From Octopus sinensis (lineage: Eukaryota), in NCBI RefSeq assembly GCF_006345805.1, contig NC_042999.1, positions 22,444,001 through 22,508,000 of the forward strand: DNA of 64,000 nt, read 5' to 3'. Shown here one piece after another: positions 3,642 through 56,504 of the stretch. A program made the position numbers and the translations under genes. The notes under the pieces were generated by a model. That model was given only the letters and a program-made list of their open reading frames with translations, had not been told where the DNA came from and did no database searches. How positions within the stretch are numbered: position 1 is the first letter of the stretch; each line of letters starts with the position of its first letter.

Positions 3642-4281
3642 TATTAAAGTATTAATTTCAATGAGACAAGTTCCAATAATACTCTTCATCAAAGCCGACA
3701 CTTTTCTAAACACGGAGGGTATATATAAACCATTAAAAGCGTGCAAACGCATAACATACAAAAACATATATATACAAATAACAGTGTAATTCTGTGCCCA
3801 AATCAAAGTCGGATAAGTAATTGCATAATTACTGAGAAGTGCAAGCTGATGAGATAACAGTTCACAATGATCCAAAAGAGATGTCCTCAAATGAATTCAA
3901 TAAATAGAAAGTCTTACGGCCGTTTCTGGGAATGTTCGAAGAAGTGTGTAGGTATTACCGAAGTTCAAAAGGGCTTACCTACACACTTCTTCGCACATTC
4001 CCAGAAACGGCCGTAAGACTCTTTCTATTTATTGAACTTCCTTTTTTGGATTATTGTGAACTGCTATCTCATCAGTTTGCACTTCTCAGTATTTATGCAA
4101 TTACTTATCAGACTTTCATTTGGGCACGGAATTACACTGTTATATGTGTATATATATATGTTTTTGTTTGTTGTATGTTCGCACGCTTATAATGGCTTAT
4201 ATATGCCCTCTGTGTTTAGATATGAGTCGGTTTTGATGATGAGTACTATTGACCTTGGAACTTGACTCTTTCAAAATAATA
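3642..4281. repeat. Head-to-head inverted duplication (~310 bp arms) of a non-coding PLE-pLTR-like sequence carrying the 3' half of a hammerhead (GAAACGGCCGTAAGAC)
   Basis: 3642-3954 is the diverged reverse complement of 3977-4281; the right arm continues at 5541 after the mariner insertion. Confidence 0.8.
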
Positions 4282-5540
4282 TTAGGTCAAGTATGAAATT
4301 TGTAGTGACGTATATAGTAAACTTTACAACTGCTCATTTTGCGCTCTTGTTATATTTTGACAATCATTATTTTTTGTTAGAAAGCTGACAATTTATTTCT
4401 TTATTCTAACTTATTTTGCGCTTTATAAAGTGTTTATAAATCGTTTTTTTTTTTGTTTTTTTTTTGCTATTTTTGTTTAGAGATGGATAAATCAGAAATT
4501 CGTACTGTTTCGAAATATTAGTTCTTTCTTGGAAATACAGCATCACAGACAGCTCGGAATATTAATGGATTTTTTCATTCTAATGTTATTACACAGCAGA
4601 CAGTATCAAATTGGTTTACAAAATTTCGTTCTGGTAACTTTGACCTAGCAAATGAGCAATGCAGTTGACCAGAAACAAAGTTAGATAATGACGAACTGAA
4701 AGCCACCGTCGAGTCAGATCCATCTCAAAGTGCTCGTGAATTATCGTTGTTGTTTGGTGTTAGCAAGCAAACAATATTGACTCACCTAGTTCAAATCGGT
4801 AAAGGGAAAAAGTTGGATAAGTGGGTTCCACATTAACTCAATGAAAATCAGAAACAGCAACGTTTGGAAGCCTGCACTATGCTACTTTCTCGTCACAAAA
4901 ATTAATAATTTCTGAATCGAATTATAACATGTGATGAGAAATGGATCCAGTACAACAATTGTAAACGTTGAGCACAATAGTTGGACAAAGACGAGCCACC
5001 ATAATACAGTCCAAAAAGCAAAATTTATCAAAAGAAGCTGACGGTGTGTGTTTGGCGGTCTGGTGTAGGTGTGATCCGTTATGATTTCATTAAACCTGGC
5101 TCATCAATCACCGCCGAAGTATACTGCAGCTAACTGGACCAAATGATGCAGAAACTTACAAAAAAAACAGCCTAGATTAATCAACAGATCCACACATCAC
5201 AAAAATGACATTGGTGAAACTACAGGAGTTGGAGTTGGAAGTTCTCCATCGTCCACTATACTCACCTGATCTTGTCCCCACTGACTACCCTTTCTTCCAG
5301 AATTTGAATAACTTTTTGACAGGAAAGAAATTTAATTCTGACGATGCTGTAAAACAAGCCTTCCAAGATTTTATTGACTCTAGATTGCCAAGCTTTTACA
5401 GTTCCGGGCTGGACAAGCTACTGCTGAAATGACAAAGTGTATTGACAATATGTGTGCATACTTTGATGAATTAAACTATTTCTGGTATTTATAAAACATT
5501 AGCAAACGTTTTTCCACAAATTTCATACTTGACGACCTAA
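4282..5540 (+). mobile_element. Full-length decayed mariner (Tc1/mariner) transposon
   Basis: TIRs TTAGGTC(GTC)AAGTATGAAATTTGT / ACAAATTTCATACTTGACGACCTAA with TA flanks; about 1.26 kb. Confidence 0.95.
4483..5470 (+). pseudogene. Mariner transposase pseudogene
   Basis: MDKSEIR..., KWVPH*L, RIITCDEKW, YSPDLVPTDY motifs with many stops and a deletion. Confidence 0.92.
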
Positions 5541-5685
5541 TACTTTAATCTAATCGCTCAATAAATTGAGCTCTATGCTGTTGTTTCTTGAAAAGAGTTC
5601 ACCTCCATAATTGTGTGTGTGTGTGTGTGTGTGTGTGTGTGTGTGTGTGTGTGTGTGTTTGTGCCCTCACTACTGCTTGATAACT

Positions 5686-5942
5686 AGAACGTAGCGGCAG
5701 ACGAAATACCTATTTCTTTACTACCCACAAGGGGCTAAACACAGAGGGGACAAACAAGGACAGACAAACGGATTAAGTCGATTATATCGACCCCAGTGCG
5801 TAACTGGTACTTATTTAATCGACCCCGAAAGGATGAAAGGCAAAGTCGACCTCGGCGTTATTTGAACTCAGAACGTAGCGGCAGGCGAAATACTGCTAAG
5901 CATTTCACCCGGCGTCCTAACGTTTCTGCCAGCTCGCCGCCT
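5686..5942 (-). mobile_element. SINE family B with partial second tandem unit
   Basis: Full unit followed by the ...AAAGAAATAG|GTATTTCGTCTG junction. Confidence 0.85.
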
Positions 5943-54109: not shown

Positions 54110-54512
54110 TTCTTTACTCTTTTACTTGTTTCAGTCATTTGACTGCGGCCATGCTGTAGCACCGCCTTTAATCGAGCAACTCGACCCCGGGACTTATTCT
54201 TTTGTAAGCCCAGTACTTATTCTATCGGTCTCTTTTGCCGAACCGCTAGGTAACGGGGACATAAACACACCAGCATCGGTTGTCATGCAATGCTAGGGGG
54301 GACAAACACAGACACACAAACACACACACGCATATATATACATATATACGACGGGCTTCTTTCAGTTTCCGTCTACCAAATCCACTCACAAGGCTTTGGT
54401 TGGCCCGAGGCTATAGTTGAAGACACTTGCCCAAGGTGCCACGCAGTGGGACTAAACCCGGGACCATGTGGTTGGTAAGCAAGCTACTTACCACTCAGCC
54501 ACTCCTGCGCCT
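54110..54512 (-). mobile_element. SINE family A
   Basis: Full-length match. Confidence 0.9.
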
Positions 54513-55214
54513 AGAATTCAGAATTATTTGACGTAGTCGAGACGTTAAATCAAAAATGAGCTGGTATTAAAAAAGGAACATATTTTATTTGCAGATATCA
54601 GGCATTAAAATGTGAAGATACGGAAACTTATTGTTCGGAATTCTGTTTAATTGACTGGATGACTGAAGAATCGATGCAAAAAGCATATACGATATTTCTA
54701 TGAACATGAAGGCAATCTGTAAAAACCATGTTTAATTGCAATATGAAATTACCTGAGGTTTCTGGGAAGCTGTGGATTAAAATGGGAAAATGCTTGACTT
54801 TAATAACGGGCATTTGTTGGAAGATTAACATGACCTATTGTGAAGAGTAAATAGCTTGCCTCATTTACAAGTCCCTGAAGCTCGAAGACCATCCCGATTC
54901 TAAACACTTTCTTCGGAATATAAGAGCCTACAATTCCGCTTTCCAAATTAAAGAATAAACAATGGGCAGGTACGTGTCAAATTAAGTGAGTCACGCAAAA
55001 GTAGAAAAATACTGCTCATCTTTTTGTTTTACATAAGAAACTGTTAGCTAAAATTTTAGATATTTGTCACCCAAATTTCCACATTCAATTACCAATCAAT
55101 ATGTCGTTTTCTACTATCCATTGAATTTTGTTGAGAGAAAATATTCACACAGTTGATTAATCGCCAATTAGTGCCATTTATTCGTTAAAGTTAATATTTT
55201 ATTTCATTTTTACT

Positions 55215-55608
55215 TTTTTTTTTACTTGATTCAATCATTTTGACTGCGGCCATGCTGGAGCACCACCTTTAAACGAGCAACTCGACCCCGGGACTTATTC
55301 TTTGTAAGCCCAGTACTTATTCTATCGGTCTCTTTTGCCGAACCGCTAAGTGACAGGGACATAAACACACCAGCGTTGGTTGTCAAGCAATGCTAGGGGG
55401 ACAAACACAGACACACAAACACACACGTACATACATATATATACATATATACGACGGGCTTCGTTCAGTTTCCGCCTACCAAATCCACTCACCAGGCTTT
55501 GGTCGGCCCGAGGCTATAGTAGAAGACACTTGCCCAAGGTGCCACGCAGTGGGACTGAACCCGGAACCATGTGGTTGGTAAACAAGCTACTTACCACACC
55601 GCCACTCT
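55215..55608 (-). mobile_element. SINE family A
   Basis: Near full-length match. Confidence 0.9.
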
Positions 55609-56504
55609 TGTCTTCTTATTCTTTTGTGTCAGCGTATTTATTAAACACAGAATGATATGCCTGGATGCACGTGTTCGAGTACAGTTCGATTTTTACTGCA
55701 ATGACAAATGTTCTTTCATGAAATTGCTTTGGAAGTTTAATGTAATTAATACGCTGATGCTGGTTGGACGAACATAGCGGCTGTTCGTACGTGATTTACG
55801 GAATGATAGCCAATAGGCTATCCAGATTTTGATTTAAAAAAAAGGGGACAAATCTCACTTTGAAACTAACGATTATGTTATGACATTTAACTGGTATACT
55901 TACTGTGACGTCTTTTACCTATGTGTAAAATTTCGGCACAATCAGTTGAAAAATACGGCCTTTACAATCTTTTACACACATACACATACAGACAGACAGA
56001 ACGAGATTTATATATATATATATATATATATATATATATATATATTATATATAGAAGATATATATATATATATTACCCCTCTGCGAGGTTATTTTATTTT
56101 AATTCTCTCGTAGGAAGGCTTAGCATGACCAGAGTGTCCTGCCTTGCCTTCGAAACACGCTATGTCTGCTAGTGACAGCTGATGAAGGGGATTTTTCCTT
56201 GTGTAGCATGTCCTGTACTTCGTTTTTCTGCTGTACATAATTGTTTTTCCCGTTTTCGTTTCGTCTTGTTCCACGTCTCTGTCCTTCTGTTGTAACAAAA
56301 TGGCTTTTCCGTTTTCGTTTCTGTTGATTTTTACGTCCTTTTGTGGTGTCCTGTACGTATATATATTTATATATGCATGTATATATACATGTAGATGTCG
56401 GTACGTACATATATGTTTGTATGTATGCATATATTTTATTTATTACAATATATATATATATATATATATATATATATATATATATATATATATATATATA
56501 TATA

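What the first reader, a model, noticed from the sequence alone, without database searches (positions are those of the whole stretch)
3642..56215. Unusually dense and diverse set of minimal hammerhead motifs hidden among microsatellites
Seen: type-I architecture at 19667(+), 33791(+), 34243(+), 34492(-), 36658(-), 36756(+), 46943(-), 47423(-), 52932(-) and 53614(+), with decayed or partial cases at 3909/4003, 22842, 35776, 38841, 41838 and 48090. The stems differ in sequence between families but the fold persists, and stem III is nearly always a self-complementary palindrome (ACGU, ACAUAUGU, ACAGCUGU, ACGGCCGU, ACAUGUGU). Most lie about 60-260 nt upstream of a (TA)n or (TG)n tract. Known: this is the signature of Penelope-like element pLTR hammerheads. 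No PLE RT or GIY-YIG ORF is present in the window. Inference: much of the apparently unique spacer DNA is a multi-family population of non-autonomous ribozyme-bearing retroelements that favour microsatellites.
Basis: partly seen in the sequence, partly recalled or inferred. Interest (0 to 1): 0.78.

Follow-up and report, generated by a model that had tools for sequence, protein, structure and literature searches.

The report
Rearranged hammerhead ribozymes in animal retroelements
The window is strewn with the tail ends of Penelope-type mobile elements carrying ordinary predicted self-cutting hammerhead RNAs, and one family among them, with thousands of copies in this animal genome, carries a rearranged, knotted hammerhead fold that the papers searched report only from environmental RNA; if it cuts, it would be the first such ribozyme known to be built into an animal's chromosomes.

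Summary
The hammerheads are real: 6 strict type-I motifs versus 0.03 in shuffles, about five times the genome background, and 13 of 18 sites lie within 300 nt upstream of (TA)n. They are 3' remnants of Penelope-like (PLE) elements, a known kind. Two families trace to autonomous RT/GIY-YIG elements, so 'non-autonomous' is only partly right, and the remnants found cover about 10% of the window. The 480-nt array is an ORF-less retrozyme with the PLE inversion-plus-tail signature. It sits in ORF-less 830-880-nt tandem units. Type-SGC hammerheads were reported only from metatranscriptomes (PMC10085705). Cleavage and expression are untested. Earlier scan notes saw PLE-type retrozymes on other genomes, none with this fold.

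The parts
56104..56208 (+). Type-SGC (non-circularly permuted) hammerhead, family H: predicted cleavage after C56138, GAAA at 56152-56155, CTGATGA at 56179-56185; this copy is slightly decayed (stem III 4 bp, one mismatch in stem I)
56076..56440 (+). 5'-truncated copy of family H, an ORF-less 850-895-nt tandem unit, between two (TA)n tracts; 1,943 first-look candidates, best 94-96% identical
46684..47778 (-). Family D: 2.3 copies of a 480-nt ORF-less unit (non-LTR retrozyme), type-I hammerhead cores at 46993 and 47473, predicted cleavage at 46950 and 47430; ends in (TA)n
34098..34372 (+). Family A: 3' end of an autonomous Neptune-type PLE; hammerhead core CTGTAGA (U at position 6, fixed in 25 of 25 copies) at 34247, cleavage 34274
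47779..48235 (+). Older family-A-type 3' end with decayed hammerhead near 48090, joined head-to-head to the D array
35691..35815 (-). Decayed family-A-type hammerhead remnant
19585..19810 (+). Family-A-related 3' end, core CTGAAGA at 19671, cleavage 19697, ends in (TA)n
34391..34600 (-). Relative of the 19671 copy (81% identical), core at 34522, cleavage 34496; shares a TA tract with the 34247 copy
22191..22941 (+). Family G: 3' UTR of a young autonomous PLE (781-aa RT/GIY-YIG frames elsewhere); U3-A8 core variant TTGATAA near 22843
33743..34096 (+). Family B 3' end, long stem II; core at 33796 carries a private A6>U change (18 of 19 relatives read CTGATGA); cleavage 33871
36446..36861 (.). 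Family C, two arms head-to-head: core 36734 (-), cleavage 36663; core 36761 (+), stem I broken
52717..53147 (-). Family E (young, 91-98% identical copies), core 53008, cleavage 52935, with a short inverted arm 53096-53147; (TA)n on both sides
3642..4250 (.). Family F, two arms head-to-head, both truncated inside the hammerhead (GAAA blocks near 3909 - and 4003 +)
53560..53745 (+). Hammerhead with U4>C core CCGATGA at 53618, cleavage 53661, short TA tract behind
38168..39055 (.). Inverted pair 38170-38292 / 38865-38986 with a decayed type-I motif at 38841 (+); arms end about 65 nt apart, each at (TA)n
41740..41940 (-). Decayed motif with CCGATGA core near 41920 and GAAA block near 41848

Best explanation
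The motifs are the 3' ends of several Penelope-type mobile element families sitting in (TA)n microsatellites, most with ordinary minimal type-I hammerheads and one, an ORF-less 830-895-nt tandem repeat with thousands of copies, with a non-circularly permuted (type-SGC) hammerhead that is predicted to cut its multimeric transcript into unit-length RNAs, which a PLE reverse transcriptase/endonuclease likely copies back into new TA tracts. Shown: the motifs, their families, fixed 3' ends at (TA)n, random 5' truncation, head-to-head inverted arms whose two 3' ends differ by a fixed tail, more-than-unit-length tandem copies, intact RT/GIY-YIG elements in the genome, S-G-C block order and compensatory changes in stems I and III. 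Inferred: transcription; self-cleavage (type I as dimers through the palindromic stem III; SGC as a double pseudoknot in which the CUGANGA strand pairs with the loop holding the cleavage site, held by a leader helix); ligation to circles; copying of circles or multimers in trans by the Neptune-type proteins, with two start sites on the RNA giving the tail.
For: Type I. PLE link. Insertion signature: family A 25 of 25 share one 3' end at a TA tract; family E 15 of 15, with an inverted arm ending about 148 nt short in 25 of 40 loci; family D 11 of 12 inverted arrays have one arm ending at unit position 359-370 and the other at 479-480, the tail pattern described for PLEs (PMC8557442; PMC11167929). 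SGC: 2,217 and 1,884 exact matches to two disjoint G..C patterns, controls 0; 10,594 to a looser one, control 120; S block with stems I and III >=4 bp in 36 of 55 loci chosen on G and C alone versus 0 of 117 metagenome and 0 of 5 viral chance matches, 17 of 30 in the looser set; with the site fixed by stem III alone, all five stem-I pairs form in 41 of 60 copies; on a plain MAFFT alignment of 43 copies 94.2% of cells pair, 4 of 5 pairs in stem I and 4 of 5 in stem III change on both sides, 0 of 500 shuffles reach it, slid controls 45-63%. Spacing matches HRIMA-1: site, 5-bp stem I, short linker, stem II, GAAA, and one extra base after CUGANGA. Units of 833-879 nt, longest ATG frame 49-145 aa, up to about 3.4 units; tail in 2 of 5 inverted pairs.
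Against: No cleavage or expression data. Stem II of the SGC motif is short, rich in G-U pairs and was fixed by my search patterns, so its covariation is barely tested (one variant, GCTC/GGGT). The direct stem I/II helix that HRIMA-1 needs is absent in family H; the leader helix P4 scores 14.6 vs 11.7 shuffled and P5 only 12.0 vs 10.8. The 43 sequences fall into few subfamilies, so the changes are a handful of events. Single-strand folding (no pseudoknots) gives competing hairpins and z near 0 for the motif. No autonomous element carrying the SGC motif or matching D, B, C, E, F was found, so the helper protein is unassigned. Minimal PLE hammerheads cleave poorly in vitro and 8 of 9 tested Xenopus retrozymes did not cleave.
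Confidence: 0.78

Rival explanations
1. The S-G-C motif is catalytic but works as a domain-swapped dimer: stem I forms inside one unit as a hairpin, and the looped-out GAAA block pairs with the cleavage-site and CUGANGA blocks of a second unit, so no single molecule forms the double pseudoknot.
For: PLE hammerheads are thought to act as dimers (PMC4209133); units occur in tandem; stem I extends to 7-9 bp in some subfamilies and nested folding then favours the stem-I hairpin; in one subfamily stem III is itself palindromic (ACGT). Covariation cannot tell cis from trans.
Against: Spacing is that of HRIMA-1 ribozymes, whose short single constructs cleaved; stem III is not palindromic in most subfamilies; helix P4 ties leader and linker of the same unit.
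Confidence: 0.25
2. The S-G-C structure is kept for a non-catalytic job (binding or positioning the PLE protein, or protecting the RNA) and does not cut.
For: In the one PLE tested in vitro, hammerhead mutants did not affect insertion and cleavage needed the protein (PMC11167929); core variants such as U6 are fixed in successful families here.
Against: Every catalytic-core letter and the N-U-H site are kept across subfamilies that are only about 69% identical over the unit, while stem letters are free to change; H17 varies among A, C, U and is never G in intact copies (descriptor-imposed in part).
Confidence: 0.15
3. The ORF-less arrays (D, H) are satellites spread by DNA-level recombination or copied by a LINE, not by PLE machinery.
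For: No autonomous partner found; CR1-type and other LINE remnants are abundant.
Against: Dispersed short arrays on many contigs, two fixed 3' ends, TA tracts on both sides, head-to-head inversion with a tail in 11 of 12 D arrays; no poly(A) or simple-repeat tail of their own; same pattern as the coding PLE families.
Confidence: 0.08
4. One reading: all motifs belong to non-autonomous elements that make up much of the unique spacer DNA.
For: No PLE ORF in the window; D and H are ORF-less; B, C, E, F untraced.
Against: A and G trace to coding PLEs; remnants found cover 9.5% of the window.
Confidence: 0.1

Closest known systems
Type-SGC hammerhead ribozymes, HRIMA-1 and SGC variants (Eckert et al. 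2023, PMC10085705)
   Same: Block order S-G-C, full catalytic core, 5-bp stem I, 3-6-nt linker between stems I and II, one extra base after CUGANGA, covarying stems I and III.
   Different: [quoted passage not shown] The helix joining the flanks of stems I and II directly is missing in family H; both flanks instead can pair with a 5' leader (P4 well supported, P5 weak). One ribozyme per unit, none on the other strand; the unit is U-rich and not rod-like.
Minimal type-I hammerheads of Penelope-like elements (Cervera and de la Pena 2014, PMC4209133)
   Same: Palindromic or absent helix III, extra base between 9 and 10.1, long helix II, many families per genome, opposite-strand pairs 100-700 bp apart, U3-A8 variant.
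   Different: Family A has U at core position 6 in 25 of 25 copies, and U4>C cores occur in coding families; neither is in the parts of the paper I read.
Animal non-LTR retrozymes (Cervera and de la Pena 2020, PMC7229834; Li, Clavereau and Pollet 2026 preprint 10.64898/2026.07.22.740005)
   Same: ORF-less tandem units (51-972 bp reported), low GC, one hammerhead per unit, proposed PLE dependence. Family D fits fully on sequence.
   Different: Family D shows the PLE inversion-plus-tail signature (the word 'inverted' does not occur in PMC7229834; the preprint argues from sequence similarity and co-occurrence). Family H has an SGC, not a type-I, hammerhead.
Neptune-type Penelope-like elements (Craig et al. 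2021, PMC8557442)
   Same: RT followed by a CX2-5CxxC linker and C-terminal GIY-YIG, upstream overlapping ORF, (TA)n target, truncation, inversion, tail.
   Different: Tails here are 45-150 nt rather than 30-40; clade not confirmed by a tree (Neptune versus Nematis).

Membership tests
Type-SGC hammerhead (Eckert 2023) | Blocks in the order cleavage site, GAAA, CUGANGA within about 75 nt | tested here: met
   36 of 55 loci vs 0 of 117 and 0 of 5 controls; 17 of 30
Type-SGC hammerhead (Eckert 2023) | All conserved core nucleotides present | tested here: met
   GAAA, CTGANGA invariant in alignment A2 (partly by the search pattern); U16.1 in 42 of 43, not imposed
Type-SGC hammerhead (Eckert 2023) | Covariation in stems I and III | tested here: met
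   4 of 5 pairs each with double changes; subfamily table
Type-SGC hammerhead (Eckert 2023) | Covariation in stem II | tested here: inconclusive
   Letters fixed by the patterns; one variant GCTC/GGGT versus CTTC/GGGG
HRIMA-1 motif in the strict sense | Direct helix between the flanks of stems I and II | tested here: not met
   2-3 bp in most family-H copies; weak 4-7-bp A-U/G-U alternatives in other subfamilies; leader helix P4 found instead. Not filed under HRIMA-1.
Type-SGC hammerhead (Eckert 2023) | Site-specific self-cleavage | not testable with these tools
   Only contigs of runs guessed to be RNA were available
PLE minimal type-I hammerhead | C-G-S order with core, short stem I and palindromic stem III | tested here: met
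PLE minimal type-I hammerhead | Located in the 3' repeat of an RT/GIY-YIG element | tested here: met
   Met for families A and G; not found for B, C, D, E, F
PLE minimal type-I hammerhead | Cleavage as a dimer | not testable with these tools
   bench test
Neptune-type PLE (families A, G) | RT then C-terminal GIY-YIG in one frame | tested here: met
   781-aa frame: RVT_1 E 9.7e-7 (29.1 bits, cut-off 29.6), GIY-YIG over cut-off; family A seen in pieces
Neptune-type PLE (families A, G) | CX2-5CxxC linker before the endonuclease | tested here: met
   Read in the translations; shared by Neptune and Nematis
Neptune-type PLE (families A, G) | Placement in the Neptune group by RT phylogeny | not tested
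   No reference PLE sequences held
Non-LTR retrozyme | ORF-less tandem unit with one hammerhead per unit | tested here: met
   D; SGC units:
Non-LTR retrozyme | The hammerhead is type I | tested here: not met
   Met for D; not for H and its relatives (SGC). H works like a retrozyme but is filed as a variant.
Non-LTR retrozyme | Accumulates as unit-length circular RNA | tested here: inconclusive
   Unit-length contigs in runs only guessed to be RNA; tandem DNA gives the same joint

The most novel reading that the evidence does not exclude
An animal genome carries about ten thousand copies of an active, non-circularly permuted (double-pseudoknot) hammerhead ribozyme with its own leader-braced architecture, used by a family of PLE-dependent retrozymes to cut and circularise their RNA: the first chromosomal and first animal SGC ribozyme, invisible to standard type I-III and Rfam scans and likely to be hidden in other invertebrate repeats.
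Probability: 0.6. Interest if true: 0.85.

Novelty: new variant of a known kind. Interest (0 to 1): 0.72.

Why it matters
The listed type-I motifs alone are new members of a well-described kind. The SGC family matters for three reasons. It moves a ribozyme topology known only from anonymous environmental RNA into a named kind of host element, with a testable role. Its many subfamilies are a natural covariation and activity series, and they sit beside ordinary type-I PLE hammerheads in the same genome, which makes the open question of how non-circular permutations arise (raised in PMC10085705) directly approachable. And hammerhead surveys that use only types I-III would have missed about ten thousand loci here, so 'hammerhead-less' PLE-type elements elsewhere deserve a rescan. 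Family D adds a mechanistic footprint (inversion plus tail) to the recent proposal that animal retrozymes are moved by PLEs.

Tried and rejected
Rfam: no hammerhead among the 150 of 329 rows shown for the window and none on an intact SGC copy. Expression: no RNA holder listed for family D (19 holders, none on record as RNA). Laying contigs gave unit-length contigs for D (503 and 509 nt) and one 862-nt contig closing on itself for an SGC unit in a run of another organism label, but a DNA-like run shows the same joint and no common stop at the cleavage site was listed: no evidence either way. Type II (G-S-C) reading of 56104-56208: rejected, no stem I can form after a site between GAAA and CUGANGA in other subfamilies. 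Viroid- or obelisk-like origin of the SGC unit: no antisense core, 42-47% U, not rod-like; not excluded for the ribozyme alone. Autonomous partner of the SGC units: 6 of 113 loci had PLE protein hits, none continuous with the unit (L272 read in full is a separate element ending in TA; the others judged by strand and position). Partner of B, C, D, E, F: none among 56 GIY-YIG loci nor in their own flanks. tRNA in the units: none in 9 loci. The same G..C pattern in metagenome and viral contigs gave chance matches only, so the spread to other animals is unknown. Alignment A3 misregisters the long-linker subfamily by two columns and was not counted. One search was swamped by microsatellite hits and redone with masking; one search crashed after its first setting (5 hits, 4 distinct, in 1,124,316 unselected bases; 0-1 in ten shuffles). 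A Pfam family for the PLE thumb is not in the library. Lunse et al. 2017 on dimeric PLE hammerheads is not held: seen only as a title in reference lists, and it or its supplement may already hold the type-I families and core variants. The preprint's supplements were not read.
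Full report
Setting. The window is G000:C3:22444001-22508000 in a 2.72-Gb genome of 13,516 contigs. It is rich in microsatellites, SINE-like repeats and LINE, helitron and transposase fragments. From recall its short repeats look like those of a cephalopod; no call tested this.

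A type-I descriptor (core, stems I-III, N-U-H site) finds 6 strict and 8 one-mismatch motifs against 0.025 and 0.3 in 40 shuffles; nine of the ten listed sites pass and stem III is palindromic in all nine. Forty 10-kb stretches taken at regular steps hold 7 strict motifs in 399,900 bases, so the window is about five times denser, but the 10 kb to its left hold 8 and those to its right none. Scaled up by my own arithmetic, 7 in 400 kb would be some tens of thousands of motifs genome-wide. Thirteen of 18 sites have (TA)n within 300 nt downstream, against 19.6% of random positions; TA density itself is ordinary.

Families. Each motif belongs to a dispersed family (first-look candidates: A 3,137, B 3,428, C 640, D 1,314, E 2,450, F 87, H 1,943). 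Copies share a fixed 3' end running into TA (A 25 of 25; E 15 of 15), are cut at random at the 5' end, and often carry a head-to-head inverted arm that ends a fixed distance short (E 25 of 40 loci; B). Published passages describe exactly this for PLEs: truncation, inverted arm, tail at one end, (TA)n bias (PMC8557442) and two start sites for reverse transcription that define the tail (PMC11167929). The genome holds many GIY-YIG loci (147 of 150 scored, 5,029 candidates) and intact 775- and 781-aa RT/GIY-YIG frames with a CX4CxxC linker. Window 22191-22941 is 95-98% identical to the 3' UTR of the 781-aa family; its core is the U3-A8 variant described in PMC4209133. Family A lies 0.5-0.9 kb behind a GIY-YIG frame in 5 of 25 loci and has U at core position 6 in 25 of 25 copies (22 read exactly CTGTAGA; copies were picked by likeness to the window copy). 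B, C, E and F were not traced to a coding element. There is no PLE protein remnant in the window. All remnants found cover 9.5% of it; a library biased to the window's families covers 1.0% of the background.

Family D is a retrozyme with a PLE footprint. The 480-nt unit recurs at 95-99% identity in arrays of up to about ten copies on many contigs, folds well from cut site to cut site (z -5.5) and has no coding partner (1 of 18 loci has a short PLE hit, 1 kb outside the array). Arrays lie between TA tracts, begin anywhere and end at unit position 359-370 or 479-480; of 12 inverted arrays, 11 use one end on each arm. More-than-unit copies with this signature are what reverse transcription of a circle or multimer by a PLE protein would leave (inference). 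A 2026 preprint argues from similarity that vertebrate retrozymes derive from PLEs.

The unlisted motif. At 56104-56208 GAAA comes before CTGATGA, and relatives show why: a cleavage-site block lies upstream of both. Its 5' side pairs with the bases after GAAA (stem III), its 3' side with the bases before CTGATGA (stem I), and the bases before GAAA pair with those after CTGATGA plus one extra A (stem II). The order S-G-C is not a circular permutation of types I-III; it is the type-SGC form of Eckert et al. (sections read), and the spacing matches their HRIMA-1 alignment. Abundance: 2,217 and 1,884 exact matches to two disjoint G..C patterns with reversed-pattern controls of 0, 10,594 to a looser one with control 120; of the first 30 of these, 27 look like family members by eye and 17 have stems I and III of at least 4 bp. 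Control: among loci chosen on the G and C blocks alone, the S block pairs in 36 of 55 in G000 (most misses are 5'-truncated copies) and in 0 of 117 metagenome and 0 of 5 viral chance matches. Fixing the site by stem III only, 41 of 60 copies form all five stem-I pairs and 51 at least four. On alignment A2 (43 rows: 39 of the 55 pattern loci after dropping 16 truncated upstream, plus L025, L101, L136 and the window copy) 94.2% of cells pair against 87.7% shuffled and 45-63% slid; 4 of 5 pairs in stem I and 4 of 5 in stem III change on both sides. Subfamilies use CTGTC/GACAG, CTGCC/GGCAG, TCGCT/AGCGA, TCGCC/GGCGA, TTGTT/AACAA and TTGTC/GACAA in stem I. Limits: few independent events, stem II hardly tested, related sequences inflate shuffle tests.

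Its architecture differs from HRIMA-1. There the flanks of stems I and II pair directly. In family H they do not; a 5' leader can pair with the stem-I flank (P4: CTAGCA/TGCTAG, CTAGTTCGAC/GTTGAACTAG, GTTTCATT/GATGAAAC, CTGTTTT/AAAACAG in four subfamilies; mean score 14.6 vs 11.7 shuffled over 62 copies) and, less surely, with the stem-II flank (P5, 12.0 vs 10.8). The predicted fold is a long hairpin whose terminal loop holds the cut site and GAAA, kissed by a bulge that holds CUGANGA. A swapped dimer fits the covariation equally well.

Its carrier. Tandem copies give units of 833-879 nt (8 printed) and 851-895 nt for family H, without frames over 145 aa, tRNA genes or an antisense core; subfamilies are 69-92% identical, and a palindromic hairpin just before the 3' end is shared even with family H. 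Insertions lie in TA tracts (53 of 66 copies have a microsatellite 150-400 nt after the site; some loci were fetched twice), reach about 3.4 units, form inverted pairs and show a tail in 2 of 5 pairs. A further subfamily has 4,108 candidates. So it behaves like family D, with a different ribozyme.

Literature seen. Passages: PMC8557442, PMC7229834, PMC13282606, PMC6765202, PMC13725137. Parts 1-2 of 4: PMC4209133, PMC11167929. Parts 1-3 of 5: the 2026 preprint. [quoted passage not shown] Searches for a report of SGC hammerheads in retroelements or animals returned only that paper and papers citing it; subscription papers and Lunse et al. 2017 are not covered. The scan's own notes hold no match by words, sequence or place.

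Verdict. The SGC family inside its coordinates lifts it: a new variant of a known ribozyme in a new kind of host element, strongly supported as a conserved structure, untested as an enzyme.

Noticed in passing
G000 left neighbour L122:2600-5400: A second ORF-less-looking tandem family of about 545 nt with a type-I hammerhead (palindrome ACGTACGT), arranged head-to-head with different arm ends, 5 kb left of the window.
   Followed up: partly
   Followed up: no
window 49312 (+); 18196 (+) and 19046 (-): Further CTGANGA ... GAAAC motifs with long stem II or weak stems; 18165-18296 and 18946-19076 form a 92% inverted pair.
   Followed up: no
L121, L194, L201, L205, L206 (3' UTR about 500 nt behind the stop): An intact 775-aa PLE family carries a U4>C core (CCGAAGA); L211 has the canonical core in the same stems.
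   Followed up: partly
L050, L195, L210, L212, L213: Another coding PLE family has a second U3-A8 core, TTGAAAA.
   Followed up: no
L272:1205-1245 and L056: A coding PLE family seems to carry an A3-U8 core (ATGAATA) with stem I and palindromic stem III intact: a third 3-8 pairing.
   Followed up: no
L110:174-1610: A 479-aa open frame overlaps the start of the 781-aa RT/GIY-YIG frame, a two-ORF PLE layout; no Pfam match over cut-off.
   Followed up: partly
L441:2301-3159, unit positions about 165-240: Long palindromic hairpin just before the 3' terminus, shared among SGC subfamilies including family H; candidate recognition site for the helper protein.
   Followed up: partly
L441:2570-3430 in run X13 (organism B): One 862-nt contig covers the SGC unit exactly once and closes on itself; RNA status is a guess and a DNA-like run shows the same joint. 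Family D is held by runs of five organism labels.
   Followed up: no
window 42470-43720 (-): PIF1-like helicase fragment, E 1.8e-64, likely a helitron remnant.
   Followed up: no
window 59015-60034 (+) and 36998-37969 (-): LINE-type reverse transcriptase fragments (RVT_1 over cut-off for the first; CR1-like by recall).
   Followed up: no
window 39406-40102 (-): Broken frames that read like a mariner-type transposase (label recalled).
   Followed up: no
window 58008-58345: 30-bp minisatellite, 11 copies.
   Followed up: no
window 47779 and 34096: PLE-type ends stacked on each other: family A joined head-to-head to the D array, and B directly followed by A; TA tracts serve as repeated landing sites.
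   Followed up: partly
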